A stretch of 52,733 nt of DNA from a bacterium (GCA_037144045.1 JBAWXN010000002.1:1-52733), one strand, 5' to 3'. Positions 4,457 to 21,493 are shown, counted from the first letter of the stretch. Made by a program: numbers and translations. The notes: generated by a model from the letters alone, not told the origin.

Positions 4457-4528
4457 TCCCCTGTAGCTCAGCGGTAGAGCAAACGACTGTTAATCGTTTG
4501 GTCGCAGGTTCGATCCCTGCCGGGGGAG
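4457..4528 (+). tRNA. tRNA-Asn (GTT)
   Basis: Full cloverleaf: acceptor TCCCCTG/CGGGGGA, D-arm GCTC/GAGC, anticodon loop CTGTTAA, T-loop TTCGATC. No encoded CCA. Extended -10 TGcTATAGT at 4438-4446. Confidence 0.97.
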
Positions 4529-6211
4529 CACAACAAAAGAAAGCATCTCGAAAGAGGTGTTTTCTTTTGCATTTACAAGCTGAAAGTTAGGTTCTAACGT
4601 AGCAATTTTCTTGAAGAACCCATCACTGCATTCTTTGATGCTTATAAGTGATTTAGGCAAGGAAACACAAAGGTTTTTGTCCTTTATGTTTAGGTTCGAA
4701 CCTAAAGCCACAACAATCGACTTCTTCTGCTCCGCGGTCCCGTTTCGGAACTTTTCAAGAGCATTCTCGGCAAATTGAGCATAGTTTTCGGCGACCTCAA
4801 ACCAATTGATTAGTCGATCTTGATGACTGGTTCGATTGTTCTTAATGATCGTGAGTTCTTCTTCAATTTCAGATTTATACTTCTTGAATTGCTCAGCATC
4901 AATTTCATTGTCTGCTCGCATGCGTGTGTATCGGTCCAATTTATTTACAAGGTCAATTTCCTTACGGTTCTGTGCGTGGACCAGCTCTTTCTGATTTCCA
5001 ATTTCTTCCTTATGGATTTCTTGGAAGCCTGCCTTAAGCCAGGAATGAAACTCTTCCGGAATGGTAATAGAAGATAGATATTGTTCCACTTGAGCACTGA
5101 GTTGTTTCTCGGTCATATTTCCTTTTTGGCTGCATCCTTCTCGCCGTCCCGTGCAATGGTAATAAGTAATATCAATAAACGAAGGTTGTTTCATTTCTGA
5201 AATGTCAGTGCCACATTTGGGGCAATCAGTACGAGTAATCATTGAAAACTTATATTTGCAATTCTTGCAGATGCATTGCTTCTTACGCTCAGCGGTAATC
5301 TTACATCCGCAATCTCCACAGGTAAGAGGCCCCCGAAAAGGATAAGGAATATCTTCTTGGTACTGTCTCGGTCGCCCCTTCTTCCCAAACATTTTCTGTG
5401 CCTTATCGAATTCTTCAGGAGTGATCATTGCTTCGTGTTTTCCAAGGACCTCACTCTTTCCTCCGACTCCATCATTCCAGTCAAAGTAGCCGCAATAAAA
5501 TTTATTCTTAAAGAATCCTGCCACCGTAGATTCGGCGTATTTTACACCTTGCTGATTGCGCAGCCCGTATTCATCCGCTAATTTCTTATGTATAGACTTA
5601 ATACTATAGGTACCAGAAAGAAGCATGTCCCATCCCTTACGAATAATAGCAAAGCGTTTATTGTCCTTTAGAATTTCTTTATCTCCTGCTTCAAATGTAT
5701 CTTTCGGATTGTGCATGTAGCCAGCCGGAAGCTGAGCGCAGGGGTACCAACCACGCATAGCCTTCTGGCGCATTCCACGTTTTGCATCCTCACTAAGATC
5801 CTTAACGAATTGATTAGCCATCCCCATTTCTACTGCCATCATGATTACATTGTCAGTAGGATAATAATTTCCAGAATAGGTCTTAATATGTTTAATAATG
5901 CCTTGTTGTAGAAGCCAGCTAATTTGTCCACCATCAATAGGGTTGCGCGCAAGTCGATTAAGCTTCCAGCAGATAATACCGCTTGCTTCACCATTATGCA
6001 TACGTTGAAGCATTTCATTGAACTTTTCGCGCCCTGGCTTTTTAGCTGACTTGGATTCAGTAATTTCAGCCACTACCTCTAGTCCATACTGTTCGGCCAC
6101 TTTTCTCATCTCAAGAAGCTGATCCTCAATGGAAGCAACTTGTTTGTCTTCTGATTCAGAAGAGCGTCGACAATAAATAAAATATTTATTGTCATTGGTT
6201 AAAGTTTTCAT
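4490..6211 (-). CDS. Large serine recombinase (resolvase + recombinase + Zn-ribbon + coiled coil)
   Basis: N-terminal YCRRSSE catalytic Ser motif, WKLNRLARN, CGDCG Zn ribbon, coiled coil. The last codons (PRQGSNLRPND) are the antisense of tRNA-Asn. Confidence 0.95.
   Translation of the reverse strand: MKTLTNDNKYFIYCRRSSESEDKQVASIEDQLLEMRKVAEQYGLEVVAEITESKSAKKPGREKFNEMLQRMHNGEASGIICWKLNRLARNPIDGGQISWLLQQGIIKHIKTYSGNYYPTDNVIMMAVEMGMANQFVKDLSEDAKRGMRQKAMRGWYPCAQLPAGYMHNPKDTFEAGDKEILKDNKRFAIIRKGWDMLLSGTYSIKSIHKKLADEYGLRNQQGVKYAESTVAGFFKNKFYCGYFDWNDGVGGKSEVLGKHEAMITPEEFDKAQKMFGKKGRPRQYQEDIPYPFRGPLTCGDCGCKITAERKKQCICKNCKYKFSMITRTDCPKCGTDISEMKQPSFIDITYYHCTGRREGCSQKGNMTEKQLSAQVEQYLSSITIPEEFHSWLKAGFQEIHKEEIGNQKELVHAQNRKEIDLVNKLDRYTRMRADNEIDAEQFKKYKSEIEEELTIIKNNRTSHQDRLINWFEVAENYAQFAENALEKFRNGTAEQKKSIVVALGSNLNIKDKNLCVSLPKSLISIKECSDGFFKKIATLEPNFQLVNAKENTSFEMLSFVVLPRQGSNLRPND
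4509..4598. other. tRNA/element junction (attL-like): tRNA T-arm + GGAGC core + recombinase 3' arm
   Basis: The LSR ORF crosses into the tRNA at GAGC 4526-4529. The right arm has a hairpin (4534-4569, which can act as the tRNA terminator) and GTTCTAAC at 4591-4598, the same layout as sites at 19.4-21.0 kb. Confidence 0.7.
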
Positions 6212-6351
6212 AAATTTAATTTAGAGACACAAAAGGGGATGATGGTTAACGATTTCAGAGTTGCTACACACGAAATCACCATCACCCCCTATTGGGCTTA
6301 AATCGTTAATAAAATCTCGTATGTAGCATTACAATTATAGCCTGTTTGATT

Positions 6352-7845
6352 TTAAAAAGGAATTTGGCCTGGATCATCATAGAATGATTCACTGTCGGAC
6401 TCGTCGTTAGTGACAGTAGTACTATACTTATGATTGATCAAGCGAATAGTTCGATGCGTACTCCTTTCGCGTTCAATAGTAATTCCTATTTTTCCTAGAG
6501 GCACCTCGAGCTGATTGATCTTTTTACTCAGAATCACTTCGTTTTTTGGTAGCTCTAATCTGCTTATCGATCTCTCATTCCACAAGGATTCACTTAGGAC
6601 TTGATAGAGTTCACGCGGGGTACCTTCCCAAGTTTTCTTATCTGACATAAAGTCTCGTATAGTTACGGCTATGTCACTATTATTAATAGCTTCATCGGTC
6701 TGACTTTCAATGTTGCGATTGTAAGCATTTAAAAATTGCTCTTGTGAGTAACCAATAGATTTGGCAATTGCGCATCCCCAGATGGCAAAATCTGCCATCC
6801 TGGGACTACTTCCTAAGACAATTTGATCTTTTATCTTCATACTATTTGATACTGCTGTAAATATTGCACCTAAGATAAGGGCTTTTTCTTCTTGGAAACC
6901 CTTAAACAATTTTTCCTCACTAATTCTTTGAGAGTCATCCATTCGTTTAAGCGGAAAAAGTATTGAGCGCTCCAAAAGGTCCGGCTGTGTTCCGTCAAGA
7001 TTGATACCATTAATACCAATACATCGCTTAAAATTATAGATAACATCTCCGTCATTGGTATATAGTTCACGCTTAGAAACTCCAATACCTGTGATTGCTT
7101 TACATAAACAATCAGAAAGTTTTTGATCAACATACGAGACATTATCAAAAAAACTAAACCAATTATGTTCTAATTGTTGGATAAGCTCGTTATTGTTCTC
7201 AGGGAATGTAACAATCCCAAGCTGTGACGGGTCTACTAATTCACGTGTAATTCTTGACACGCTTGATTTTGCTGAACCCTGAGGACCGTATACATATGCC
7301 AAAGGATGAGGGATACCCGGAATAAAACAGGATATAATCCAGACTAAAAATAGAATCTTTTGATCTTCATCGGTAATATTTAAGAAATCAAGAATTCTTC
7401 TCACGTCGCCTCCCAATTGAGGATCCACCTGTGATTTATGATGGGTATATCTTTTAAATAAAATCGGCTCATGGTTTATTTTTGTAACCTCCCAACCATC
7501 CTTACTTATTGATATTGTGCTCCATGTTGAATTGGTTAGATCGTACAATATTTTTTCTTTATACCAAGCAACCCTGTTATGAAGTTGATGTTCAGGTCCA
7601 TCAAATAAGGCTTTCGCTTTTAGTAATTCAATAATACTTTTGATGCTTTCTCTGCCTGGATTTTTTTCAAGGGTCTGATAAAGAACACTTCTACACCATA
7701 AAGCTGTCTTAATTCCATCACAAGGATATATTTTCAAAACACCCTCATCATCAATCCGAATCCAAGGATTTTGTTTCTCGTCATGAAATAACTCAATGTT
7801 CTGGTTTAAGATTATTTCAAGATTTTCATCTACGTTGTTAATCAT
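6352..7845 (-). CDS. Mobile-element P-loop ATPase (primase/helicase-like replication protein)
   Basis: Walker A GPQGSAKS, Walker B-like FFDNV, DLLERS, PRMADF; typical of phage/ICE replication ATPases. Confidence 0.7.
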   Translation of the reverse strand: MINNVDENLEIILNQNIELFHDEKQNPWIRIDDEGVLKIYPCDGIKTALWCRSVLYQTLEKNPGRESIKSIIELLKAKALFDGPEHQLHNRVAWYKEKILYDLTNSTWSTISISKDGWEVTKINHEPILFKRYTHHKSQVDPQLGGDVRRILDFLNITDEDQKILFLVWIISCFIPGIPHPLAYVYGPQGSAKSSVSRITRELVDPSQLGIVTFPENNNELIQQLEHNWFSFFDNVSYVDQKLSDCLCKAITGIGVSKRELYTNDGDVIYNFKRCIGINGINLDGTQPDLLERSILFPLKRMDDSQRISEEKLFKGFQEEKALILGAIFTAVSNSMKIKDQIVLGSSPRMADFAIWGCAIAKSIGYSQEQFLNAYNRNIESQTDEAINNSDIAVTIRDFMSDKKTWEGTPRELYQVLSESLWNERSISRLELPKNEVILSKKINQLEVPLGKIGITIERERSTHRTIRLINHKYSTTVTNDESDSESFYDDPGQIPF

Positions 7846-7972
7846 ATATTGATTTAATGAGATTCATCATCCAGAATGTGAGCTCATATGCATCCTCTTG
7901 AGAAATAACAACTCCATATTTTTTGTTGTATATCTCAATGAGACTATCGAGCTGTTTCTGAGAGATCTTCAT
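7838..7972 (-). CDS. Small (44 aa) element protein, not in the ORF track
   Basis: MKISQKQLDSLIEIYNKKYGVVISQEDAYELTFWMMNLIKSIYD; its stop overlaps the start of the ATPase (ATGATTAA), suggesting translational coupling. Confidence 0.65.
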   Translation of the reverse strand: MKISQKQLDSLIEIYNKKYGVVISQEDAYELTFWMMNLIKSIYD

Positions 7973-8087
7973 TTTTTGATTTATTTATTAATAATAATTT
8001 GTAAAGAAAAAAACGCCCTGTGGCGCTCGTTCCTACGAAAGCTATTTTATTTATTTTATATCTTAATGAATATCATAATGATGGTCA

Positions 8088-8834
8088 TTAATTTTTTACC
8101 TCTATTAGATCATACAAATCAACATTTCTTTTATCGTCTCTATCTTTGATAGAATCTATATCTGCAACACCCCTTATTAGGGATAGGAGTTGTTTCCTTG
8201 CTCCTGTGTGTTGATATTCCCCGCCCATTCTTTCAATTACCCGTTCCTTCTTACAAGTAAGGTCTTTACCTCCTTCAAAAAAACATTCTAATAACTTCCT
8301 GGGCGCACCAGATATCTTTTGCGTACTTTTTCCATAGGAATTGGAAAGGATTCCAGATTTTGGATCGAAATAAAGATTTTTGAGTTTAGGTTTACCAGAA
8401 GAGATATTTCCCGAATTCTTCTTCTCTAATAGTTTTATAAGAAGTGTTTTTAATTCACAATCCTCTAATCCTTGAGAAGGAAGATTATTACTGTAATATT
8501 CTTGGCGCATACTCTGTACTTTACCCAAAGCCTTCTTGATACAATTATTGGCCGCATTCACTTCTTGGATTTCTTCGGGAGTTATTTTTTTATTGAACAT
8601 TAAATCCCTAGGTACTTCAATATCGTCAATCGAAAGAACACTTGAACCAATCGGACTAGCAATTAGTTTATTTAAAATATCTAGTTCTTTCCAATAGAGA
8701 AAACTCAGTACCTTATCATCGTCTACAGGCTCAGTAAAGTGAGCATCAATTATTTTTCGTAGATTATAGACAGATTGGGAAAGTGCTCTACGGTATTCTT
8801 TTATTTGGTCTGATGTATGCTGTTTTGTCCTCAT
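8088..8834 (-). CDS. Hypothetical protein, possible C-terminal winged-helix DNA-binding domain
   Basis: 248-aa ORF co-oriented with the ATPase/LSR; C-terminal half resembles an OmpR-type wHTH (weak). Confidence 0.55.
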   Translation of the reverse strand: MRTKQHTSDQIKEYRRALSQSVYNLRKIIDAHFTEPVDDDKVLSFLYWKELDILNKLIASPIGSSVLSIDDIEVPRDLMFNKKITPEEIQEVNAANNCIKKALGKVQSMRQEYYSNNLPSQGLEDCELKTLLIKLLEKKNSGNISSGKPKLKNLYFDPKSGILSNSYGKSTQKISGAPRKLLECFFEGGKDLTCKKERVIERMGGEYQHTGARKQLLSLIRGVADIDSIKDRDDKRNVDLYDLIEVKN

Positions 8835-8862
8835 ATTTGTATAGTAACAAACTTTCTAATAA

Positions 8863-8892
8863 TTGACATATATTATTTATGTGTGTTATAAT
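8863..8892 (+). promoter_or_regulatory. Sigma70 promoter for the TerS-like gene
   Basis: TTGACA (8863-8868), 18 nt, TATAAT (8887-8892) with an extended TG. Confidence 0.75.
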
Positions 8893-8932
8893 GTATACAT
8901 TACCCTACTTTTCCTATGATGCTACGTAACCT

Positions 8933-9238
8933 ATGAAATCTAAACCCTCAAGTAAGCAAAGACAATACGCATACAACCTTCTCAACTCAAATCAGACTAA
9001 ACAACAATCAGCCCTCATGGCTGGATATTCAGAGTCTATGGCTCGTGTTCCTGCTCAAATTGAGCAATCTAAAGGATTCCATCTCGCAATGGCTATTATT
9101 GCTGGCTATACCGAAAATGTAGCAATGCAAATACTTCACGAGCTCCAAGCAAGGGATATTTCCAAGGAGGATACAAAGAATCTCTTTTATGGAATTGATG
9201 TTTTATCTAAGGCTTGGGAGAGGTTTATGTCAAAATAA
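8933..9238 (+). CDS. Terminase small subunit-like HTH protein
   Basis: N-terminal KQRQYA...KQQSALMAGYSES..A resembles the TerS HTH pattern. Confidence 0.5.
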   Translation: MKSKPSSKQRQYAYNLLNSNQTKQQSALMAGYSESMARVPAQIEQSKGFHLAMAIIAGYTENVAMQILHELQARDISKEDTKNLFYGIDVLSKAWERFMSK

Positions 9239-9312
9239 CGCTTTATTTTATAACTATTTTTTGCTATAGTTTGTGCACAACTTAATCAGTAGCCTAAACC
9301 TTAGAAAAATTC

Positions 9313-9441
9313 TGAGGCATGGTGAAAAAACCCAGTAAAGATTAAAAAACCCATCATATGGGGCTATCTTTACTGGTCGTATCTGGAAACGGATACGGAG
9401 GGCGAAAGCTCTCACCTATGTGGTGGGCTTTTTGCGTCTCA
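9313..9441 (+). ncRNA. Candidate structured RNA (multi-hairpin, two GAAA tetraloops)
   Basis: Stems CCAGTAAAGAT/ATCTTTACTGG, CGTATCTG-GAAA-CGGATACG and GAGGGC-GAAA-GCTCTC, in an intergenic region. Confidence 0.45.
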
Positions 9442-9471
9442 ATTATCTAAACTAACCAAGTCAAATCTTTT

Positions 9472-10218
9472 ATGAGTACAATAGGATGGATAGCTTTGTT
9501 TGCTATATTGATAGCACTTAATATTTATTTACAGGACCGTAATTCGAAGCAGCCAGTGAAAACAATCACCGATGTTGAAGAAGCTATAAAAGAATACCTT
9601 GGTTTTGCAAAGGAAAACTCAAATTCTAATCAGTTACGTGAAAAAGCAACTACCCTTGAAAAACGCCTAGGCTTATGTAAGCAACTTATTACTATACAAT
9701 CGTTACATGAGCAAAATCCTATGCTGCTAGTAGCTTTAGGCATTGATCGTTATCGAACACTGGGAGAAAATACAGAATTTAAAGCACCCAATTGGAATTA
9801 CTGGAATACGGATATTCTTAAAGAAAAAGATATTATTCTTATCTATGAAAATATAATAAAAGCCGGGGATGTTTTGCTTTCAAGGATAAATAATGAAGAG
9901 ATTAAACCTAGTTACATGCTTTTGTTTAGTAAAGACTCTATAGCATTAAGTCGAATCATTAAATATAGTAGTGATGACCTATTTGGTGATACTAAGAAAG
10001 TATTTAAAAAAGGATTAAGTGGTGAATACGAGGATTTATTACGGTTTTCAATAGAACAAGATTCTTATAAAATTGAAACTTTCCATCCAGGAGAATGGAC
10101 AATTGAACTTGTTGACTGCTTTAATCTTTTTAGTAAGAACTTTAACACATGGAACAATAAGATGGAAAAAATTAACAACTGGGTAGATATACAAAAATTT
10201 TCTCCAGATAAAAAATAG
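9472..10218 (+). CDS. Hypothetical protein with N-terminal TM anchor
   Basis: 248-aa ORF; no family recognised. Confidence 0.7.
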   Translation: MSTIGWIALFAILIALNIYLQDRNSKQPVKTITDVEEAIKEYLGFAKENSNSNQLREKATTLEKRLGLCKQLITIQSLHEQNPMLLVALGIDRYRTLGENTEFKAPNWNYWNTDILKEKDIILIYENIIKAGDVLLSRINNEEIKPSYMLLFSKDSIALSRIIKYSSDDLFGDTKKVFKKGLSGEYEDLLRFSIEQDSYKIETFHPGEWTIELVDCFNLFSKNFNTWNNKMEKINNWVDIQKFSPDKK

Positions 10219-10305
10219 GCACCCTGGGTATACCCTTTTCAATAAGGGGCAGGGTCATTGTAGTAAAAAGGGTCCCATTGTTTCAATTAGGATACAGTAA
10301 AATAA

Positions 10306-10659
10306 AAACACAAAAAACAAAAGATTCCCCATTCAGGGAGAGAATATGGTAAATATGATTGTTGGAATAGTTGGATACAGAAAGTCAATTTTAAAATCCT
10401 TCCACGTTCTAACCTTCGCACTACTTGGTCACAAACCTTTCAAAGGAAGTTCTTTGAACAGGGCTATATTGAAGGAGACCCACTAGACTATAACCCTCCC
10501 CAAAAGACATCTTCGAGCGAAATTATAAATAAGGTTGTTAGGTTTGCCTCGGTTGGAATGATTGATGGAATGGTCGTGTTTATTAAAACTTATCTTCAGG
10601 GTCATTCGAAAGCGACTGGTGTTTCGTTTGACCTAGGAAGAACTTTTGATTCCCTATGA
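10306..10659 (+). pseudogene. Start-less open frame (probable frameshifted gene)
   Basis: Open frame of 117 codons (KIPHSGREYGKYDCWNSWIQKV...FDSL*) with no ATG until about 10558. Its stop overlaps the ATG of 10656. An A-rich stretch at about 10299-10322 is the candidate frameshift site. Confidence 0.35.
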
Positions 10660-11045
10660 TTAAATTAAGAGCATTAACTGAAAAGGTACGAAATTATTTC
10701 AAAGACCCTTTATTCTTGAGTAAATGGGATATGTATTCGCACTACGGAAAAGTCGAAAGGTCTAAGTTGAAAATGATAGGAATACCTACTCATTTTTATA
10801 TAAATTGGAACCCTTACTCTACGTCAATACATCTTCTCAAGGAAGACTTTCTGGCAAATATCTACCCCTTCACTCATATTGCGAAATCTTCTGATTTTAA
10901 AGTATCTCTTCGTAGTCCTGATAGAAATACTGAAAAAAATATCGCAGATGCCTTATCAGGGAGCTCTTATCCTGAGCGGCTAGAAAATGCTTTAGGTAGC
11001 TTTATAAGAAAGGTAACATTACTTCGCTTGAAATTGACCATGTAA
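10656..11045 (+). CDS. Hypothetical protein
   Basis: 129-aa ORF. Confidence 0.5.
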   Translation: MIKLRALTEKVRNYFKDPLFLSKWDMYSHYGKVERSKLKMIGIPTHFYINWNPYSTSIHLLKEDFLANIYPFTHIAKSSDFKVSLRSPDRNTEKNIADALSGSSYPERLENALGSFIRKVTLLRLKLTM

Positions 11046-11113
11046 GTAGAAAAGGACTGATTTCCTTTGGTAAAAATTACCTGCAGTTTTTACATTGGGG
11101 TATTGCTAAGAAG

Positions 11114-11617: not shown

Positions 11618-11650
11618 TTCTCTGATATAGAAATGTTATACTGTCTTAAC

Positions 11651-14439: not shown

Positions 14440-14452
14440 GAGGTAATCCTTC

Positions 14453-14803
14453 TTACTCAAGCGGTTTAGATCCGTCTTTATTACTGAGCCCTTCTGCTGC
14501 AGAAAAAATCTTTGCATCTTGGTTAATTTCAACCTGTGGAAGGATATCCTTTCGCGCATTCTCCCCTTCGTACATTTCAGGATGAAGCGACCGATGAATC
14601 TTCTTGTAATTTTTGCTCGCTTCGTTATACCGTTGTACTATTTTGTAGTTTGCCTCTTCGTCAAAGTCTTCAGCTCCGAAATCTACACCATTTAGGATGT
14701 TAGCTGCCTCGACATATTCTGTGTCAGCTTTTTGTAGGTCAGCTTCTGTAAATGTCTCTTGCTTATTAAAGATTTTCTTAAAAAATGATGAGTCGCCTGG
14801 CAT
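14453..14803 (-). CDS. Hypothetical protein
   Basis: 116-aa acidic ORF. Confidence 0.6.
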   Translation of the reverse strand: MPGDSSFFKKIFNKQETFTEADLQKADTEYVEAANILNGVDFGAEDFDEEANYKIVQRYNEASKNYKKIHRSLHPEMYEGENARKDILPQVEINQDAKIFSAAEGLSNKDGSKPLE

Positions 14804-14903
14804 ATAGATTGGGTTAGTTGGTTCTTAATAGTGACGCTTGGACACTGATTTTATTATACGCTTTTCATGGCAGGAGGCTAGGGTATTAAATACCAAGTAA
14901 ACA

Positions 14904-15269
14904 TTACCATAGAAAAGAGGAAATTTGATGCCTAAAAATGAAAACAAGGATTGTAAAAACAAGAGTGCCCACAAGAGATTTTATCGAATAGTTATCCTGG
15001 TGATTCTTACCACCAATGAGCAAATAGGTAAGCTCATCAACAAACAATCCGAGCCCAATAGCAAATAACCACACATTTTTAGCCAGCAACCCAAAGACAG
15101 CTAAGAGGATACCATACATGTAATGGTGTATTCGGAAGCCTCCAATAGTCGGGCTTGCGATGGGTTTAAAGTAGAGAAAGATTCTTGTGGCAAGAATAGT
15201 TATAAGGAAAATGAGAAAAGATGCATTGTCGATACTCATACCATCATGGTAACATATCCATATGAACAT
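14904..15269 (-). CDS. Small membrane protein (HHYMYG motif)
   Basis: Hydrophobic helices with RIHHYMYG and GLFVDEL motifs; true start may be slightly downstream. Confidence 0.7.
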   Translation of the reverse strand: MFIWICYHDGMSIDNASFLIFLITILATRIFLYFKPIASPTIGGFRIHHYMYGILLAVFGLLAKNVWLFAIGLGLFVDELTYLLIGGKNHQDNYSIKSLVGTLVFTILVFIFRHQISSFLW

Positions 15270-15714
15270 CCGCCCCGCAACCGAACAAGACTTTCCTCGA
15301 CTCTACGAAATTGGAAGTCAGACCCCAGAACTTCGAGTCAGTGCCACAGAATCATTCATGGATGCCGACGAATTTAAATGGGCGATCACAGAATACAAAA
15401 ATGCGGTCTTTCTGATTGCAGAATTAGATGGCTCGATTGTAGGTTTCATTTACGCTAATGCTAAAGACCTGGACAAGCCGGTCAAACATAAATACGCCTG
15501 CTTGGTATACATGACTGTCCTACCTGAATTTAGGAAACAAGGGATTGCAAAAGAATTGTATGCTACCTGTTTGAGTGAGCTGAAAAGCAAAGGGATTACC
15601 CACATGTACGGATGGGCAAATGCTGAAAGCGACGGAGCCATCATTTCCTTTTTGGAAAAGGAAGGATTCGCCAAGGGGCACAAGTATGTCTGGATGGATA
15701 GAGAAATAGTTTAA
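15262..15714 (+). CDS. GNAT family acetyltransferase
   Basis: MNIRPAT..D; VLPEFRKQGIA; FLEKEGF. Confidence 0.9.
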   Translation: MNIRPATEQDFPRLYEIGSQTPELRVSATESFMDADEFKWAITEYKNAVFLIAELDGSIVGFIYANAKDLDKPVKHKYACLVYMTVLPEFRKQGIAKELYATCLSELKSKGITHMYGWANAESDGAIISFLEKEGFAKGHKYVWMDREIV

Positions 15715-15723
15715 AATAAAACG

Positions 15724-16182
15724 ATGAAAAAGATTGCTCAAAAAATTAAGATCAGTAAGGCAGAAGCCACCGATGCTCAAGAAATACGAAAACTTGAAAC
15801 TTTGGTATGGGAGGAAGAAGTGACAAACCAGTACGACAGTCCCATGTTCGTTCGCTTCGGATATGTATTCACTGCCAAGGAAGGCAAGAAGCTGGTGGGT
15901 GCCATCGTAGCTTTCAGAACGAACAAAAATGAGGTGTTCGTATCCGATATTGTTGTGCATCCATCCTATCAAGGCAAGAAAATTGGAGAGAAACTTTATA
16001 AGAAGCTCATTCAAAGCGTGAAAGGTAAAAATATCGTTTCATTCCTAGACCCAGATCTTATCCCAACACTTAATCTTCACAAGAAACTTGGAGGTAAAGT
16101 GGTGGCGAAAGTTAGAAACGCATATGATTTAAAAGAAGGACTGGAGACAGGTGTTCGGCTCATGGTTAGGATTAAAAATTAG
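15724..16182 (+). CDS. GNAT family acetyltransferase
   Basis: IVVHPSYQGKKIG; LHKKLG. Confidence 0.88.
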   Translation: MKKIAQKIKISKAEATDAQEIRKLETLVWEEEVTNQYDSPMFVRFGYVFTAKEGKKLVGAIVAFRTNKNEVFVSDIVVHPSYQGKKIGEKLYKKLIQSVKGKNIVSFLDPDLIPTLNLHKKLGGKVVAKVRNAYDLKEGLETGVRLMVRIKN

Positions 16183-16660
16183 CAATCCCCAGGTTTTTTA
16201 GGTGTTCTTGAATGAGTGCGACATCCACAAGGTGTTTTGGTTTGTTGTATGCTTGCTTAAATTTTAAAATATCTGTCAGTGAAGCAAAGCGAACAGTATC
16301 AATTACCTCTGATCTTTCGAGCAAATCTTCAAAAGAAGGTGTAATATTTCCGCAATTTACATCCAAATAAAGTTCCACCGAACCGCGTCGCAGATATACT
16401 TGCCCTAATTTATCGCTATAAGTCCAGGGGATTTGTTCCCATCCTTGCTGTTTGCATGTTTCAAAAAGGGTTGGAGTGACGACAATATCAATATCATCTA
16501 CATTCCTGATAGCATGTGCTGCCATAGGGCTACTTCCAACAATAATGTACTGATTGCTTTGGAAATTCAGGTTTTTGATTGTCGTGAAAATATCTATTCC
16601 ATTTCCCGGAAGGATGATAACTGCATCGGTTTTTGAGATTTGGATACTAGGTGATTTCAT
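16172..16660 (-). CDS. Nucleotidyltransferase-superfamily protein
   Basis: GS...AAHAIRNVDDIDIVV NTase motif; C-terminal K....KH..D. Confidence 0.65.
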   Translation of the reverse strand: MKSPSIQISKTDAVIILPGNGIDIFTTIKNLNFQSNQYIIVGSSPMAAHAIRNVDDIDIVVTPTLFETCKQQGWEQIPWTYSDKLGQVYLRRGSVELYLDVNCGNITPSFEDLLERSEVIDTVRFASLTDILKFKQAYNKPKHLVDVALIQEHLKNLGIANF

Positions 16661-16730
16661 AAGCTTATTCTAACACTAGAGCCAGGTAAGACCATGAAGG
16701 AAGATGGTTAGATCAGCAACTGGTAATACC

Positions 16731-16759
16731 TTGACAAAACGCCCATTTGTTGCTATACT
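16731..16759 (+). promoter_or_regulatory. Sigma70 promoter of the DGR target gene
   Basis: TTGACA (16731-16736), 17 nt, TATACT (16754-16759) with an extended TG. Confidence 0.8.
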
Positions 16760-16826
16760 ACCCCTAAGCAAGTATTCTTGCCGACTGCTCCGACAGATTT
16801 CGGAAAACCTTCAAAATATCATACGC

Positions 16827-17489
16827 ATGGCAAATGTACGTGACATGGGGCTTGGACAATGGAATGAATTTTCTGTTGCACTCCACAAGGCTGGTTTCGA
16901 TACCGACCTTATCCAAAAGATTATTAACGCCAGAGACAACAAGCTGGCAAAAGCGATGTACACGGCTGTAATAGGTGAAGAACTGGACGAACGCTTCGGA
17001 CCCGCAATTGTGGAATTCGAGCTTACCGTTCCCACCGACTACAATCACGATACGCAGATAGACACTTCCGGTGCAAAAGCCAGAAAGGAGAAAACTACGT
17101 ATTACTACAACGATGACTTGACCAGCAAGAACTTTGCAAAAGCTACGAACAAATTGGTTCCCGGCAAAACCTACAAGGTGAAAATCTTCCCGATACTTTC
17201 AACGGTAACGAGCGAAGATTGCATGGCGTTATTGCGCAAGCAAAAAGCTATACTGGTAGGCGGACAGGGTGCTACATTAGTTTACGACCTTGCAAAAGAC
17301 AAGTTGCCCAAAGGTAAATGGACGGCTTCCTTTGATGAAAAGGACGCATTGTGGAAAGACGCTGACGGGGACCGTAGGGTGCCTTACGTGCACGCGTTCA
17401 CGGACGGTGGCTTCAAGTTCAACCTCGGCAACTTCGGGCTTGTCTGGCATTCTGTCAACTGTGTTCTTTGCTTCTGCGAACTAATTTAA
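16827..17489 (+). CDS. DGR target protein with C-terminal variable region (CLec-like fold expected)
   Basis: Last 120 nt match the TR with adenine-specific mismatches. ATG 16827 preferred because the ORF-track start at 16704 lies upstream of the promoter. Confidence 0.9.
   Translation: MANVRDMGLGQWNEFSVALHKAGFDTDLIQKIINARDNKLAKAMYTAVIGEELDERFGPAIVEFELTVPTDYNHDTQIDTSGAKARKEKTTYYYNDDLTSKNFAKATNKLVPGKTYKVKIFPILSTVTSEDCMALLRKQKAILVGGQGATLVYDLAKDKLPKGKWTASFDEKDALWKDADGDRRVPYVHAFTDGGFKFNLGNFGLVWHSVNCVLCFCELI
17360..17479 (+). repeat. DGR variable repeat (VR)
   Basis: 120-nt ungapped match to 17830-17949 with 11 mismatches, all opposite TR adenines. Confidence 0.97.
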
Positions 17490-17541
17490 GTACTTAGGTA
17501 CTTGGATTCTTAATGTCATTGTGTCCTTAGATACTTTGTCC

Positions 17542-17572
17542 GTGGCTTCGCGAATGCGAAGCCACTTTTTTT
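17542..17572 (+). terminator. GC-rich hairpin downstream of VR (DGR homing hairpin and/or terminator)
   Basis: GTGGCTTCGC-GAAT-GCGAAGCCAC followed by T7. A second hairpin AAGTAC-TTAG-GTACTT lies at 17488-17503. Confidence 0.7.
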
Positions 17573-17829
17573 ATACCAAAAATCACTTATACTACATCTC
17601 GGAAAGCGATCAGTGTTCGGCTACGGCTTCATGCGATCAATTTCTCGTCTGGGAATATGCGAGAGGCTCGTCGGGTACGCCTTGCGAGAGAGTGCATCCC
17701 TTCATGAAAAAAATATAAATTAGTCGGTGCAACACATCCGCGGACAATTTGTGTCCCGAGTAAAATACAGAGGGTGGCTGGTGCTGTCTTTGGTGGAATG
17801 GAAGGTGTGTTGTACATTGCTTGCGTGTG

Positions 17830-17949
17830 CGCTGACGGGAACCGTAGGGTGCCTAACGTGAACGCGAACACGGACGGTGACTTCAAGTTCAACCTCGGCA
17901 ACTTCGGGAATGACTGGAATTCTGACAACTGTGTTCTTTGCTTCTGCGA
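17830..17949 (+). repeat. DGR template repeat (TR)
   Basis: Nine AAC/AAT codons in the VR frame; has an A at every position where VR differs. Confidence 0.97.
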
Positions 17950-17961
17950 CTCATGGATTTT

Positions 17962-17987
17962 CTCCCGCTATTTCGTGGGAGTTTTTT
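17962..17987 (+). terminator. Terminator-like hairpin just 3' of TR
   Basis: CTCCCGC/GTGGGAG stem plus T6; overlaps the avd stop codon. Confidence 0.55.
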
Positions 17988-18306
17988 CTTGAAGGTTTTT
18001 CTTCCATCCGCCGAGCATGCGCCCGCATTCGTCGAGTTGTAGTATAATCTTCGCGTAAATCTCGTGGTTGATGACTTTATGCTCCCATCCGAGTTGCAAG
18101 AAGAACTTGAGCAGATCTGATTTGCCGATAGCGTGGGATACGAGCGACAGTTTCTCAAACTTGTCATAAGCAAAGGTTGCCTGAAAGAGTAGTTCGAGGA
18201 GTTCAAGAAAAATATTGTCGATCTTGCAACCAAGAGTGTGCCTATCAACCTTGGAAACGTTTGCTAAATGGTCATGCCAAACCCTGTACGATTCTTTCGC
18301 CTGCAC
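17968..18306 (-). CDS. avd: DGR accessory variability determinant (four-helix bundle); 5' end possibly frameshifted at a G12 tract
   Basis: RHTLGCKID, DLLKFFLQLGWE and ECGRMLGGW Avd motifs. The frame stays open upstream (PPPPIIPLVL) but has no start codon. Confidence 0.85.
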   Translation of the reverse strand: MQAKESYRVWHDHLANVSKVDRHTLGCKIDNIFLELLELLFQATFAYDKFEKLSLVSHAIGKSDLLKFFLQLGWEHKVINHEIYAKIILQLDECGRMLGGWKKNLQEKTPTK

Positions 18307-18325
18307 GAGAACAAGCGGTATGATC

Positions 18326-18337
18326 GGGGGGGGGGGG
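18326..18337 (+). repeat. G12 homopolymer tract between avd and RT
   Basis: Twelve consecutive G. Confidence 0.95.
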
Positions 18338-18362
18338 AGAATTTCGGGTCTTTAACTTTAAT

Positions 18363-19343
18363 ATGTTCACTCATAAATACAACAATATCATATCGGTGGA
18401 AAATCTGCTTTCGACATGGGAGCGTTTCCTCAAAGGAAAGCGTGGGAAAAAGGATGTGATGATTTTTCAGTCGAAGTTTTCCGATAATATTCTTGCGTTG
18501 CACAAAGAGCTTGTGGGGCGGTCATATGTTCATGGGGCATATTCGGCGTTCAATGTGTCGGATCCGAAGCCGAGAAACATCCACAAGGCGGAAGTTCGCG
18601 ACCGACTGCTCCACCACCTCATCTACAAGGAGCTGTATTGGTATTTTGATACTCGATTCATCCACGATTCGTATTCGTGTCGCAAGGATAAAGGAACCCA
18701 TAAGGCGCTCGACAGGTTTCGTGAATTTGCTGGAAAGGTATCCAAAAACAACACCCGAACGTGCTACGTTTTGAAATGTGATATTAGAAAGTTCTTCTCG
18801 AGCATTGACCATGAGACGCTTCATATAATTCTGAAACGGCATATCGAAGACCCTGAGATGCACTGGCTCATCGGTCAGGTTGTCTCGAGTTTTCATACGA
18901 CAAGGGTTGGTGTGGGGCTTCCGCTTGGCAACCTTACTTCTCAACTGTTGGTGAATATCTACATGCATGAGTTCGATATGTTCGTTAAGCAGGAGCTTCG
19001 TGTTAAATATTATTTAAGGTACGCGGACGATTTTGCTGTTCTTTCGGATGACAGGAAGTATCTGGAAGAAATACTTATCAAGATGGAGGAATTTCTGAAA
19101 ACTAAATTAAAGCTAAGTCTTCACGAGGACAAGGTGTATATCAAGACGTATGCGACAGGTGTGGACTTTTTGGGATGGGTTCATTTTCCATACCACAGGC
19201 AGATACGTACGACGACAAAACACAAAGTTGTTAGAAATCTGAAAGGATATCCGAAACCCGAAACGGTGAGCTCATATAGGGGGTTGCTAGAGCATGGAGA
19301 TACTTATGATTTGAGAAGACGGACAGGGTTGCAACCGTTATAG
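18363..19343 (+). CDS. DGR reverse transcriptase
   Basis: KPRNIH..EVRDRLLHH, KCDIRKFF.SIDH, GLPLGNLTSQ and YLRYADDF motifs; no maturase/endonuclease tail; adjacent TR/VR. Confidence 0.97.
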   Translation: MFTHKYNNIISVENLLSTWERFLKGKRGKKDVMIFQSKFSDNILALHKELVGRSYVHGAYSAFNVSDPKPRNIHKAEVRDRLLHHLIYKELYWYFDTRFIHDSYSCRKDKGTHKALDRFREFAGKVSKNNTRTCYVLKCDIRKFFSSIDHETLHIILKRHIEDPEMHWLIGQVVSSFHTTRVGVGLPLGNLTSQLLVNIYMHEFDMFVKQELRVKYYLRYADDFAVLSDDRKYLEEILIKMEEFLKTKLKLSLHEDKVYIKTYATGVDFLGWVHFPYHRQIRTTTKHKVVRNLKGYPKPETVSSYRGLLEHGDTYDLRRRTGLQPL

Positions 19344-19370
19344 CTTTTCCGACACTTCCGTCAGGAACGA
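19338..19370. repeat. Partial att-like left arm (site A')
   Basis: TTATAGCTTT identical to site C (20928-20937), followed by CCGA...CAGG. Contains the RT stop codon; lacks the GAGC core. Confidence 0.4.
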
Positions 19371-19405
19371 CGGTAACTTTGTCATGAAGAAATGATGGTG
19401 ATCCT

Positions 19406-19505
19406 CCTCGATAATCAGGGTTCTGATCTGGCGCAGTCGTGCGAGCCAGCAAAAAGACCTTATTTTATATAGGTCTTTTTTGTTACCTTTTGGTGAATTC
19501 GAACC
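19406..19505. repeat. att-like site A
   Basis: CCTCGATAAT starts 37 nt before GAGC (19443), as in site B. Right arm: CAGCAAAAAGACCT hairpin, TTGTTACCTTT, then ATTCGAACC 50 nt after the core. Confidence 0.75.
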
Positions 19506-20081
19506 TTATACTATTCGCCTTACAATTTTTTGAAGTTTAGGTATAATTTCTTCCTTAAACCAAGGGTTCTTCTTTAGCCAGATATTGTTACGTGGTGAAG
19601 GGTGGACTAATGGTAGGTAGTTTGGTAAATATTCTTCAAATGATTTAACTGTTTCAGTGAGGGACTTTTTTCGTTTTGTGCCAAGATAAAGTTCCTGTGA
19701 ATACTGTCCAATTAAAATAGTTAATTCTATGTTTGGCATATTTTCTAAAATAAGTGGATGCCACTTTTCTGCAAAACCTTTTCGTGGTGGCACATCACCT
19801 CGCTCCTTGCTACCAGGAAAATAGAAATCCATTGGAACCAAAGCGACCTTCTTTTCATCATAAAAAATTTCTTTAATCATTCCGAGCCACGCTCTTAAGT
19901 TATCTCCGCTTAAATCATTCCACGGTACATTACTTTCTTGTGCTAAGCGTCCTGGTGCTTGTCCTATGATAAGTATCTTTGCAGACTTGTGAGCTGTGTA
20001 AATAGGTTCCCATCCTTTTTTGTGAAAAGGTTTGTTTTCTTTGTCATTTATAATTTCTCCTTTTATCTGCTTTAGGTTCAT
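19506..20081 (-). CDS. Uracil-DNA glycosylase superfamily protein
   Basis: IIGQAPG and LVHPSPRN UDG motifs; lies exactly between sites A and B. Confidence 0.9.
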   Translation of the reverse strand: MNLKQIKGEIINDKENKPFHKKGWEPIYTAHKSAKILIIGQAPGRLAQESNVPWNDLSGDNLRAWLGMIKEIFYDEKKVALVPMDFYFPGSKERGDVPPRKGFAEKWHPLILENMPNIELTILIGQYSQELYLGTKRKKSLTETVKSFEEYLPNYLPLVHPSPRNNIWLKKNPWFKEEIIPKLQKIVRRIV

Positions 20082-20100
20082 ATGCTAACTATATCATTTT

Positions 20101-20200
20101 CCTCGATAATTACTTGTCGAACATCCTCCCAAGTTCGGAGCAAAATTTTAATCTTATTTTGTAAAGGCAATTTTACATACTTTAAAAGAAGTTCGAACCT
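20101..20200. repeat. att-like site B
   Basis: GTCGAAC-N10-GTTCG-GAGC (core 20138), then GTTCGAACC at 20191. Confidence 0.8.
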
Positions 20201-20216: not shown

Positions 20217-20927
20217 ATGAAAAAAATAACAGGTATTTTGTTTGTTGTTGGTGCGCTGATAGTAAACATACCGTACGCATTACTTATTAGTAATTTTAAT
20301 TATCCAGATATTTTAAGAGAACCTGCAGGAGTGGTGCTTACTAATTTTGCAGCTGGAGGTAGCAATTTGATCTATACTTGGCTCTTCTTTGCACTCGCAG
20401 GATTACCACTTCTTTTCGCTACAATAATGCTTGGAAAACTATGGAAGAATGCTTCTAGTACTCTGGTGAGCTTAGCTACTACTTTTGGAATAATCGCACT
20501 TGTCGCTCAGTTGATTGGTCTTTTGAGATGGGTCTTCGTTGTTCCAATACTAGCTCAGAATTATGTTGCGAACGGCGCTACAGAAGCGATACAGACAGCT
20601 TCGACCGTAGCATTTCAAACAGTTAACCAATTCGGAGGTGTACTCCTTGGGGAATACGTAGGTCAGCTTTTCAGTATTATTTCTATGTTCTTATTCAGTA
20701 TTATTATTTTACGTAATAAACTTTTGAAGTCGTGGGTTGCCTGGCTTGGTTTTGTGGCATCTCTAATCTATCTACTTGCCGAAACTGAACTATTTCATAC
20801 AGTTATACCTTCATTCCCAGTGGTGGATGTCGCTGGTCTACTTGGGAGTGTATTATGGATCGTTTGGTTAATTTCTATAGGGGTATTATTAATCACTCAG
20901 AAGAATTCTCCAAATCAAGCTCAGTAA
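20217..20927 (+). CDS. DUF4386-like membrane protein
   Basis: FNYPDILREP...GLLRWVFVVP.LA pattern; multi-TM; lies between sites B and C. Confidence 0.75.
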   Translation: MKKITGILFVVGALIVNIPYALLISNFNYPDILREPAGVVLTNFAAGGSNLIYTWLFFALAGLPLLFATIMLGKLWKNASSTLVSLATTFGIIALVAQLIGLLRWVFVVPILAQNYVANGATEAIQTASTVAFQTVNQFGGVLLGEYVGQLFSIISMFLFSIIILRNKLLKSWVAWLGFVASLIYLLAETELFHTVIPSFPVVDVAGLLGSVLWIVWLISIGVLLITQKNSPNQAQ

Positions 20928-21021
20928 TTATAGCTTTCCGAACATTGTCCCAGGTGCGGAGCCAGCAAAATCACCTTATAAAACAGGGTGATTTTTTGTT
21001 ACCTTTCTAGGAGTTCGAACC
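20924..21021. repeat. att-like site C
   Basis: TCCGAAC-N10-GTGCG-GAGC (core 20959), CAGCAAAATCACC hairpin, TTGTTACCTTT, then GTTCGAACC at 21013. Right arm closely similar to site A. Confidence 0.8.
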
Positions 21022-21058
21022 TGGCTAATTTATAGTATTAGTTCTATACTTTTATTAT

Positions 21059-21406
21059 ATGTTTATTATTACAGTATCACATTTAATCAATGTTCTAGTT
21101 GCCGGCGTAATAGCGTTGCTTTTAATGAGTAATGAGCGTCATATGAAAAAAGTATTTGGTGATGTAACTCCTGCAAGACAGATACTTTCATCTCTTTATA
21201 TGGCTATAGCAGTAGCTTCTTTCGTTGCGCTTGCTCTACCACAGTACGGTATTGCTATTGCTCTCGTACTTTTTCCTATTCAGATACTTTACAAGCTTTC
21301 TACACTGGTCACGGTGTCTTCAAAAAGCAATCCTGTAATCTGGTGTAATTTAGCGATTTCAATTGTGCACGCAATATCTCTTTACACTATTTACTTTCTT
21401 CAATAA
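21059..21406 (+). CDS. Small membrane protein
   Basis: 115-aa hydrophobic ORF; its stop codon lies inside site D. Confidence 0.75.
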   Translation: MFIITVSHLINVLVAGVIALLLMSNERHMKKVFGDVTPARQILSSLYMAIAVASFVALALPQYGIAIALVLFPIQILYKLSTLVTVSSKSNPVIWCNLAISIVHAISLYTIYFLQ

Positions 21407-21440
21407 TCGCAATTCGAACATCACCCCACGTTCGGAGCCA
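21400..21440. repeat. att-like site D (left arm + core)
   Basis: TTCGAAC-N10-GTTCG-GAGC (core 21435). Confidence 0.8.
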
Positions 21441-21452
21441 GTTAGTAATTCT

Positions 21453-21493
21453 CCAATAACAGCTATCCGAAATCCGTCCAAGGTTCGGAGCAT
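21453..21493. repeat. att-like site E (left arm + core)
   Basis: TCCGAAA-N10-GTTCG-GAGC (core 21488); its GGAG sits at Shine-Dalgarno distance from ATG 21494. Confidence 0.8.

What the first reader, a model, noticed from the sequence alone, without database searches (positions are those of the whole stretch)
4490..21493. att left arms encode in-frame alternative C-terminal tails for the recombinase
On the minus strand the LSR reads ...GTT GTG CTC (VVL) through the core, then antisense tRNA (PRQGSNLRPND*). The sites below all have the core in the same xxG-CTC frame and continue open with a conserved peptide. A: WLARLRQIRTLIIEEDHH...; B: LLRTWEDVRQVIIEENDIVSI*; C: WLRTWDNVRKAIITELDLENSSE*; D: WLRTWGDVRIAIIEESK*; E: MLRTLDGFRIAVIGE. 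In B the upstream arm is also in frame (RFELL...KILLRTW), echoing TLEP in the LSR, and the tail's TGA overlaps the UDG ATG. Inference: attP lies inside the LSR 3' end, so excision swaps a tRNA-derived tail for an L-R-T-W-x-x-V-R-x-x-I-I-x-E tail. This could be a built-in activity, stability or directionality switch, and no RDF gene is evident. Recombination that alters a protein's C-terminus is established for integration-dependent immunity in mycobacteriophages such as BPs.
Basis: partly seen in the sequence, partly recalled or inferred. Interest (0 to 1): 0.75.

Follow-up and report, generated by a model that had tools for sequence, protein, structure and literature searches.

The report
Serine integrase gene spanning its attP
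A mobile element inserted at a tRNA-Asn gene carries a serine integrase whose recombination site lies inside its own gene, so the enzyme's last 10-35 residues change with integration state; the alternative tail evolves like real protein-coding sequence, which I found described only for a tyrosine integrase (phage Mx8).

Summary
The 573-aa large serine recombinase (LSR, minus strand 6211-4490) reads across a GAGC crossover core into the antisense 3' end of tRNA-Asn. Sites A-E (cores end at 19446, 20141, 20962, 21438, 21491; degenerate F at 21999) carry left arms that continue the same frame as L-R-T-W-x-x-V-R-x-x-I-I-x-E.

The predicted family test came out positive:
- Among the 120 best homologues, about half end in antisense-tRNA tails. 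About a quarter end in L-x-x-[VIL]-R-T-x-[IL]-[IL] tails, and about a quarter stop before the core.
- Near-identical proteins occur in both states (97% identity, diverging at the core).

The arms evolve as coding sequence in the LSR frame: pN/pS is 0.43-0.58, against 0.84-1.4 in most control frames. This holds even for arms not joined to a gene. The tail has an amphipathic-helix pattern.

A contig from a sister sample joins tRNA-Asn directly to site A's right flank, so the 14.9 kb between them is an insertion. The other sites look like older cassettes stacked at the tRNA, as in SCCmec islands. Many tail-bearing proteins in databases probably come from such tandem junctions, not circles; two loci show this.

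A regulatory role for the tail is plausible by analogy with Mx8 IntP/IntX, but untested. No circular junction was found.

The parts
4457..4529 (+). tRNA-Asn(GTT). Its 3' part is the B arm of the attachment site, with T-loop TTCGAT at 4509-4514, 11 nt before the GAGC core.
   Evidence: ARAGORN; Rfam RF00005, 69.8 bits; sequence.
4490..6211 (-). Large serine recombinase gene, 573 aa. The last 11 codons plus the stop codon (4490-4525) are read from the antisense tRNA: PRQGSNLRPND*.
   Evidence: Translation; Pfam PF00239 and PF07508; 2761 homologues; the AF2 model of a homologue matches the SPbeta, phiC31, Bxb1 and LI integrase structures.
4526..4529 (.). attL crossover core GAGC. These four letters are shared by the tRNA end, sites A-F and the empty-site contig.
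   Evidence: joint 4525->19443, with 4 letters fitting either side.
4530..4598 (.). P' arm inside the LSR coding sequence. It holds a 16-bp hairpin (4534-4569, with CTCGAA in the stem and loop) followed by a T-run on the + strand, which acts as a replacement terminator for the tRNA. GGTTCTAAC at 4590-4598 is the 'TLEP' codons, at the position of the family's FEP/TTCGAACC motif.
   Evidence: strand folding: -21.5 kcal/mol, z -7.3; sequence; family alignment.
4526..19442 (.). The 14.9-kb integrative element. It carries the LSR, LOOT RNA, isochorismatase, an MFS transporter, four GNATs and a DGR.
   Evidence: A contig in run X2 joins a tRNA-Asn 3' end directly to 19443 onward, skipping 14917 nt; Pfam; Rfam.
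19338..19446 (-). Site A, the attR of the LSR element. It is a P arm whose in-frame tail is LARLRQIRTLIIEEDHHHFFMTKLPSFLTEVSEKL*, with core 19443-19446.
20078..20141 (-). Site B. P arm with tail LRTWEDVRQVIIEENDIVSI*. The stop overlaps the ATG of the UDG gene (19506-20081, - strand).
20893..20962 (-). Site C. P arm with tail LRTWDNVRKAIITELDLENSSE*. On the + strand the arm contains the TAA stop (20925-20927) of the DUF4386 cassette gene.
21387..21438 (-). Site D. P arm with tail LRTWGDVRIAIIEESK*. On the + strand the arm contains the TAA stop (21404-21406) of ORF 21059-21406.
21359..21491 (-). Site E. P arm with tail LRTLDGFRIAVIGELL..., which reads on through site D. Its core abuts the ATG of ORF 21494-21949.
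21960..22036 (.). Site F. A degenerate P arm plus GAGC (21996-21999), followed by a terminator hairpin. This is probably the oldest junction and the native tRNA trailer.
19447..19506 (+). Right module of site A: CAGC (completing an encoded CCA end), a terminator hairpin, then GTTACC...TTCGAACC. Equivalent modules lie at 20142-20201 (B) and 20963-21023 (C, 75% identical to A).
   Evidence: the repeat finder D4 and D14. The X2 contig shows module A directly after a tRNA-Asn.

Best explanation
Shown:
- A 14.9-kb integrative element sits in the 3' end of tRNA-Asn.
- Its large serine integrase gene runs across the crossover core, so attP (a P arm stored at the far end of the element, joined to the P' arm that forms the gene's 3' end) lies inside the coding sequence.
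- The protein therefore has two or more C-termini. When the gene abuts the tRNA, the tail is 11 residues read from the antisense tRNA. When the gene is joined to a P arm, the tail is 16-43 residues beginning x-x-(L/W)-x-x-(V/I)-R-(T)-x-(I/L)-(I/L)-(E/D). That happens in the excised circle, or in a tandem array where a newer element has inserted between the gene and the tRNA.
- The first 14 or so codons of the P arm are under purifying selection in the integrase frame.

Inferred:
- These codons extend an amphipathic C-terminal helix that starts in the P'-encoded part.
- The form made from the circle, which must carry out integration, is the helix-complete, selected form. The integrated form is helix-truncated and probably differs in activity, stability or site preference, as Mx8 Int does from IntX.
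- Sites B-F are P arms left by earlier elements or integrase-less cassettes that inserted one after another at the tRNA, as in SCC composite islands.
For: - Geometry. The ZD-like motif TTCGAA lies 16 nt from GAGC in the P arms and 11 nt from it in the tRNA. This is the 5-bp attP/attB offset of LI integrase (PMC3783163). Relatives have quasi-palindromic attP sites, for example L021 GTCCTTGTGCACAGGAC.
- Insertion. X2 contig joint 4525->19443. A relative in X7 lacks the DUF4386 cassette, joint 20142->20993.
- Family split.. In tRNA-class loci, attR arms 9-10 kb upstream give in-frame tails (L067, L006, L037, L050, L003 and others).
- Same gene in both states. P0017 and P0018 are 97% identical over 562 aa and diverge exactly after LCAE. 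P0044 and P0068 are 88% identical.
- Coding signature. pN/pS over codons 1-14 is 0.43 for detached arms, 0.58 for attached arms and 0.46 for window arms B-E. The two shifted sense frames give 0.86-1.42 and codons 15-22 give 0.87. In column shuffles, 0/2000, 2/2000 and 25/2000 reach the observed values. The Arg codon is only CGA, AGA or CGG. Ser switches between TCT and AGT in the two L006 arms.
- Beyond the DNA footprint. Codons 9-14, outside a 24-bp half-site, give a ratio of 0.49. Tails of tRNA-Tyr-class elements are conserved to 21 aa (VRTAIIESDYxFLPxF).
- Helix pattern. Residues are hydrophobic at positions 0, 3, 6, 10 and 11. R is present at position 7 in 38 of 39 arms.
- AF2. In P0034, helix 543-565 crosses the core, with pLDDT 91 for residues 551-560. 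In the window protein, residues 542-573 have pLDDT below 50.
- Tandem junctions. L084 and L001.
Against: - No circular (attP) junction of this element was found in Logan contigs or JGI metagenomes.
- The X2 empty-site contig has 4 differences in 30 nt of its tRNA part. It is therefore another strain or host, not an excision product of this genome.
- A sister clade (Prolixibacteraceae and Odoribacter-type loci) ends its ORF about 40 nt before the core, so the tail is dispensable there.
- Beyond about codon 14 the tails are unconstrained and stop at positions consistent with chance.
- pS is near saturation, and the pairs compared are not independent.
- One antisense frame shares third positions with the sense frame. 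It gives 0.54 for detached arms, though it has more stop codons.
- Window arms B-E have I, Q or K where the family has T.
- The AF2 alignments are shallow (30-35 sequences), and the two models are of different proteins.
- No functional difference between the isoforms has been measured.
Confidence: 0.6

Rival explanations
1. The tail is translated, but only because the att site happens to overlap the gene. Selection merely keeps the read-through peptide harmless (soluble, not a degron, stop soon after). The two isoforms behave the same, and directionality is set by an unrecognised RDF as in other serine integrases.
For: - The constraint is moderate (pN/pS 0.43-0.58) and confined to about 14 codons.
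- Tail length is variable: 8 aa in L023 and more than 40 aa in L041.
- In L084 the tRNA tail is only PR*.
- Short-class relatives work without any spanning tail.
- The island has many small ORFs without a family match that could be an RDF, for example the 101-aa ORF at 8933-9238 with an HTH-like match.
Against: - Specific residues are conserved (R in 38/39 arms, T in 35/39, and a hydrophobic 0/3/6/10/11 pattern) across CPR and Bacteroidota lineages that are only about 45% identical.
- AF2 places these residues in a confident helix continuous with the gene-encoded part.
- A merely harmless peptide would not need an invariant Arg.
Confidence: 0.2
2. The conservation of the arms is purely a DNA-level constraint: integrase RD and ZD contacts on the attP half-site. 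The peptide is an accidental translation of a conserved binding site at fixed spacing.
For: - The best-conserved letters, (G)TTCGAAC, are the ZD-type motif also present in the tRNA T-loop and the P' arm.
- The frame is fixed automatically by the fixed 16-nt spacing.
- Conservation fades after about 40 nt.
Against: - Variation has three-base periodicity and synonymous substitutions are in excess only in the integrase frame.
- Codon switches preserve the amino acid while changing the motif (CGA/AGA, TCT/AGT, CTN/TTG).
- The same signal is seen in codons 9-14, beyond the 24-bp half-site described for LI integrase.
Confidence: 0.12
3. The sites are integron-like cassette junctions. Arm conservation would then serve the cassette genes on the + strand: the shared TAA stop inside (C/G)ATAAT, terminators, and a possible -10-like box. 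It would not serve the integrase.
For: - The TAA stops of the cassette genes at C and D lie inside the arm.
- Each junction carries a terminator hairpin.
- Single-gene units lie between the sites, and a relative lacks one unit.
Against: - The UDG cassette is on the other strand.
- The same arm motif is joined to integrase ORFs in about a quarter of homologues, where no cassette gene ends in it.
- The + strand frames show no coding signal except the one that shares third positions with the integrase frame.
- There is no tyrosine IntI and no attC-type folded site.
Confidence: 0.08

Closest known systems
Myxophage Mx8 integrase IntP/IntX (Tojo et al. 1996; Magrini et al. 1999; summarised in PMC6070905)
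   Same: attP lies inside the integrase coding sequence. Integration gives the gene a new 3' end, so the enzyme's C-terminus depends on integration state. For Mx8 the review reports that the recombinant form is not inactivated but has changed specificity: it recombines several attachment sites with varying efficiencies. From memory, not checked here: the Mx8 target is a tRNA gene, and the modified form is less active.
   Different: Mx8 Int is a tyrosine recombinase with arm-type sites. Here the enzyme is a large serine recombinase with a short two-half-site att, the alternative tail is stored about 15 kb away at attR, and the tRNA-derived tail is read from the antisense strand. No activity data exist here.
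Large serine integrases of phages and elements (LI/A118, phiC31, Bxb1, SPbeta SprA)
   Same: Domain order, zinc ribbon with coiled-coil, and structural matches. The ZD-type motif is offset by 5 bp between attP-type and attB-type half-sites.
   Different: In the cases I know (from memory), attP lies next to the int gene and not inside it, and directionality is ascribed to a separate RDF acting on the coiled-coil. Here a roughly 90-aa extra C-terminal region ends in the att-spanning helix.
SCC / SCCmec composite islands at rlmH (CcrAB, CcrC; PMC11470126)
   Same: Large serine recombinases. Repeated insertion occurs at the 3' end of one conserved gene, giving tandem cassettes bounded by att sites. 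Many cassettes lack a recombinase and are mobilised in trans, in any combination. The window's array A-F, and the tandem LSR elements in L084 and L001, look like this.
   Different: The target is a tRNA gene and the units are as small as one gene. I know of no report that a ccr gene spans its att site.
Integration-dependent immunity of mycobacteriophage BPs
   Same: attP lies inside a coding sequence, so integration changes a protein's C-terminus. This is from memory and from reviews listed.
   Different: In BPs the gene cut is the repressor, the recombinase is a tyrosine integrase, and the lost tail is a degradation tag. Here the integrase itself is cut, and no degradation tag is evident.

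Membership tests
Large serine recombinase (serine integrase) | N-terminal resolvase-type catalytic domain with conserved Arg and Ser | tested here: met
   PF00239, E 9e-19, residues 11-154. R15 and S17 are invariant in the alignment of 24 homologues.
Large serine recombinase (serine integrase) | Recombinase domain, then a zinc ribbon with an inserted coiled-coil | tested here: met
   PF07508, residues 188-275. Cys 298, 301, 315, 318, 330 and 333 are invariant. AF2 shows long paired helices at about 376-480 after a beta-rich zinc domain. Foldseek top hits are SPbeta, phiC31, Bxb1 and LI integrases, E down to 1e-18.
Large serine recombinase (serine integrase) | Short att sites with two half-sites around a central dinucleotide, and the ZD motif 5 bp closer to the centre in attB than in attP | tested here: met
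   TTCGAA lies 16 nt from GAGC in the P arms and 11 nt from it in the tRNA. CTCGAA sits at a similar distance in P'. The rule comes from PMC3783163. The exact dinucleotide within GAGC is not resolved.
Large serine recombinase (serine integrase) | Catalyses attP x attB integration, with excision needing an RDF | not testable with these tools
   Only presence/absence polymorphism was seen. No RDF was recognised.
Mx8-type integrase modified by its own reaction | attP lies inside the integrase ORF, and integration creates a new 3' end | tested here: met
   The ORF crosses the core. Near-identical proteins carry either tail.
Mx8-type integrase modified by its own reaction | The two forms differ in activity or specificity | not testable with these tools
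   Indirect evidence only: purifying selection on the tail and the AF2 helix.
Mx8-type integrase modified by its own reaction | Tyrosine recombinase | tested here: not met
   The enzyme is a serine recombinase. The resemblance is one of mechanism, not of family.
SCC-like composite island | Tandem units bounded by the recombinase's att sites at the 3' end of one conserved gene, some without a recombinase | tested here: met
   Six sites bound the LSR element, the UDG, DUF4386 and two small-ORF units, and a 53-nt D-E interval with no gene. A unit is missing in a relative. Tandem LSR elements occur in L084 and L001.
SCC-like composite island | Units excise and circularise in trans | not testable with these tools
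   No circular junctions were seen in contigs.
Integron | Tyrosine IntI, attI, and folded attC sites | tested here: not met
   The only recombinase is an LSR. The arms are not attC-like; the junction hairpins are terminators.

The most novel reading that the evidence does not exclude
The tail is a built-in state sensor that replaces or supplements an RDF.
- Only a gene joined to a P arm (in a circle, or a resident gene displaced by a newcomer) makes the helix-complete integrase that is competent for attP x attB.
- The tRNA-adjacent gene makes a helix-truncated form with different directionality, or a shorter life.
- If so, in tandem arrays each newcomer re-arms the older integrase behind it. 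That would drive the stacking and reshuffling of cassettes at one tRNA gene in the small genomes of CPR bacteria.
Probability: 0.25. Interest if true: 0.85.

Novelty: new variant of a known kind. Interest (0 to 1): 0.6.

Why it matters
Serine integrases are valued as simple, one-way genome-engineering tools whose direction is set by a separate factor. If a large natural clade writes its integration state into the integrase's own C-terminus, direction or activity could be controlled without a second protein. There are 2761 homologues at E<=1e-20, in Patescibacteria, Bacteroidota and other groups. It would also extend the Mx8 principle (an enzyme modified by the reaction it catalyses) to the other recombinase superfamily. 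Separately, the stacked cassettes at tRNA-Asn show how reduced CPR genomes gather accessory genes at one site: a DGR, GNATs, UDG and membrane proteins.

Tried and rejected
I could not scan the genome for further sites or look at relatives' empty tRNA-Asn loci.
- Circular junction of this element. It was absent from Logan contigs of the source and sister runs. The exact junction word GTCGTGCGAGCACAACAAAAG had no hit in JGI metagenomes. Only contigs were available, not raw reads, and contigs drop rare forms.
- The RNA run of the same sample had no coverage.
- Viral contigs gave only two distant relatives at 32% identity, so this is not a typical phage integrase.
- The 7.9-kb contig carrying P0017 is not circular and has no tRNA, so it does not tell a circle from a tandem.
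- In Lutibacter oricola the tail-bearing LSR sits among conjugation-type genes, with no tRNA within 10 kb. The Bacteroidota context remains unresolved.
- I first read the right modules of A and C as the native tRNA trailer. The P' arm, modules A-C and site F all carry a terminator, and A-C also carry CCA plus a TTCGAACC motif at the position of the LSR 'FEP' codons. They may therefore be element-borne P'-type arms. This is not settled.
- The length of the open frame beyond codon 12 is no longer than chance, so it is not evidence.
- Pfam and PHROGs gave no RDF candidate.
- Literature searches found no description of a serine integrase gene spanning its attP. Absence from the held library is not proof.

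Full report
**What is there**

tRNA-Asn(GTT) lies at 4457-4529 on the + strand. A 573-aa ORF runs on the - strand from 6211 to 4490. It has Resolvase and Recombinase domains and 2761 homologues at E<=1e-20. An AlphaFold model of a homologue matches the SPbeta, phiC31, Bxb1 and LI serine-integrase structures. The ORF's last 11 codons (PRQGSNLRPND*) are the antisense of the tRNA's acceptor and T arm.

Five sites share a left arm of about 40 nt ending in GAGC, the same four letters that end the tRNA. The cores end at 19446, 20141, 20962, 21438 and 21491. The motif is far above chance: 4 matches against 0.11 expected. A profile search finds no other copy in the window. A degenerate sixth site lies at 21996-21999.

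Read on the - strand from the CTC codon of the core, every arm stays open in the integrase frame and gives L-R-T-W-x-x-V-R-x-x-I-I-x-E (A: LARLRQIRTLIIEE...).

**The sites are serine-integrase half-sites**

- TTCGAA lies 16 nt before GAGC in the arms, while the tRNA T-loop TTCGAT lies 11 nt before it. That 5-bp offset is the attP/attB rule established for LI integrase (PMC3783163).
- The gene's own 3' end (P' arm) carries CTCGAA at a mirror distance.
- In relatives the two arms form an obvious quasi-palindrome.
- The P' arm also folds into a 16-bp hairpin with a T-run on the tRNA strand (-21.5 kcal/mol, z -7.3). The last codons of the integrase therefore double as a replacement terminator for the tRNA.

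**Which site belongs to the element**

In a sister sample (run X2), a 235-nt contig joins a tRNA-Asn 3' end directly to 19443-19640, skipping 14917 nt, with GAGC shared. So 4526-19442 is an insertion and site A is its attR.

The tRNA part of that contig differs at 4 of 30 positions from the window's tRNA, while the right side is identical. It is therefore another strain or host with an unoccupied site, not an excision product. In a more distant relative (run X7), a contig passes from site B to the module after site C without the DUF4386 gene. Single units therefore come and go.

Of the 120 best homologues (42-57% identical):
- about half end in antisense-tRNA peptides (...LCAGxDSNLRR..., ...LLPDLDSNQD...);
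- about a quarter end in L-x-x-[VIL]-R-T-x-[IL]-[IL]...;
- about a quarter stop earlier.

In 80 genomic loci:
- about 31 ORFs run into a tRNA (Asn, Tyr, Gln, His, Thr, Ile, Gly);
- 22 have the P-type tail and no tRNA within 10 kb.

In tRNA-class loci, one or two arms 9-10 kb upstream give the same in-frame tail. Examples are L067 VLHMLYDVRTAVMDKKSI*, L006 KCTGLREVRTAIIESDY... and L037 LLRQLDAFRTVDWNK.

Near-identical integrases occur in both states. P0017 and P0018 are 97% identical over 562 residues and diverge exactly after ...LCAE, into IEAVRQFCSV versus QDLNLRRETRR.... P0044 and P0068 are 88% identical and do the same.

**Coding or DNA motif?**

I aligned about 40 arms in register and compared related pairs (Nei-Gojobori).

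| Arms, codons 1-14 after the core | pN/pS, integrase frame | Column shuffles reaching this |
|---|---|---|
| Detached (not joined to any gene) | 0.43 | 0/2000 |
| Attached | 0.58 | 2/2000 |
| Window B-E alone | 0.46 | 25/2000 |

Controls and supporting detail:
- The two shifted sense frames give 0.86-1.42.
- Of the antisense frames, only the one that shares third positions comes close. It gives 0.54 for detached and 0.84 for attached arms, with more stop codons.
- The signal is present in codons 1-5, 6-8 and 9-14 separately. It vanishes after codon 15, where the ratio is 0.87.
- Codons 9-14 lie outside the roughly 24-bp half-site of LI integrase.
- Individual switches tell the same story. The Arg codon is only CGA, AGA or CGG. 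Thr uses all four ACN codons. Ser is TCT in one L006 arm and AGT in the other.
- The residue profile is that of an amphipathic helix: hydrophobic at positions 0, 3, 6, 10 and 11, R at 7 in 38/39 arms, T at 8 in 35/39, and acidic at 12.
- AlphaFold puts these residues of P0034 in a helix (543-565) that starts in the gene-encoded part and crosses the core. pLDDT is 91 for residues 551-560.
- The last 32 residues of the window's tRNA-tailed protein are predicted disordered, with pLDDT below 50. The alignments are shallow and the two proteins differ, so this is only suggestive.

**Where the tail-bearing proteins come from**

Not necessarily from circles.
- In L084, the locus of the closest homologue (57% identity), an integrase ending VLLAGLRRVRTYILS* lies 7 kb upstream of a second, frameshifted integrase. 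The second one ends ...VGLPR* inside an antisense tRNA-Asn.
- In L001, a second integrase C-terminus with a P-type tail lies 9.5 kb upstream of the tRNA-adjacent one.

So a newer element can insert between the tRNA and a resident element, and the displaced integrase then reads into the newcomer's P arm.

This is the stacking seen at rlmH with SCC elements and Ccr serine recombinases. There, cassettes without a recombinase are moved in trans (PMC11470126). It accounts for the window's array, which runs from the newest unit (the LSR element, next to the tRNA) to older ones reduced to single genes (UDG, DUF4386 and two small ORFs). Several other CPR loci have two arms about 1 kb apart (L067, L050, L006).

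Two points stay open:
- whether the right modules of A-C (CCA, terminator, TTCGAACC) are native trailers or element-borne P'-type arms;
- the context of the Bacteroidota loci.

**Limits**

- No attP junction of this element was found.
- A sister clade ends its ORF about 40 nt before the core, so a spanning tail is not obligatory for the fold.
- Tails are unconstrained beyond about 14-21 residues.
- Nothing here measures activity, stability or directionality.
- An RDF cannot be excluded.

**Comparison with what is known**

The principle is published for the tyrosine integrase of myxophage Mx8: attP inside the integrase gene, and integration rewriting its C-terminus and properties (summarised in PMC6070905). 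This is a closer precedent than the BPs repressor. I found no description of it for a serine integrase.

Earlier notes of this scan report the same layout in other CPR genomes. They agree with this report but are not independent evidence.

**Verdict**

The tail is a selected coding sequence. The regulatory switch is a reasonable, testable inference. I class this as a new variant of a known kind.

Noticed in passing
window 16704-19343: A diversity-generating retroelement sits inside the LSR element. It has a reverse transcriptase (18363-19343, PF00078) and a 120-nt VR/TR pair (17360-17479 and 17830-17949, 91% identical) at the end of a 261-aa target gene.
   Followed up: partly
window 9291-9413 (+): LOOT RNA (Rfam RF03000, 95.9 bits) lies inside the element. 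Contigs of an unrelated activated-sludge run match just this roughly 60-nt stretch at high depth.
   Followed up: partly
window 4534-4569: A perfect 16-bp hairpin lies inside the last codons of the integrase (dG -21.5, z -7.3). It has an A-run on one side and a T-run on the other, so it looks like a terminator in both directions. On the integrase strand it sits just before the crossover and could end the mRNA before its stop codon.
   Followed up: partly
window 19447-19506, 20142-20201, 20963-21023: The right-hand modules of sites A-C end in (A/G)(A/G)TTCGAACC 49-50 nt after the core. This is the same motif and roughly the same distance as the conserved 'FEP' codons (TTCGAACC) about 66 nt before the core in LSR genes. 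attR sites in other loci show it too (L001, L055, L067). It may be a third binding motif or a relic of integrase 3' ends.
   Followed up: partly
window 20925-20927 and 21404-21406: The TAA stop codons of the + strand cassette genes at sites C and D lie inside the conserved (C/G)ATAAT of the P arm, which reads as the 'I-I' codons on the other strand.
   Followed up: no
L005, L009, L020, L021, L048 around 10001-10036 and 11715-11751: In Flavobacteriia loci, a 12-16-nt inverted repeat links the integrase's codons for YFLYAR (TTTTCTCTATGC) with GCATAGAGAAAA, which lies just after the P-type tail and before a terminator. This could be 5'-3' pairing within the mRNA that exists only in the P-arm-joined state.
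   Followed up: partly
L006 1860-1900 and 2875-2915: Both attR modules of this tRNA-Tyr element contain, about 50 nt from the core, an inverted copy of the core plus the start of the B arm (GTGCGCCGGGA).
   Followed up: no
window 13426-16182: A run of four GNAT acetyltransferase genes, plus isochorismatase and an MFS transporter, makes up cargo of the element.
   Followed up: no
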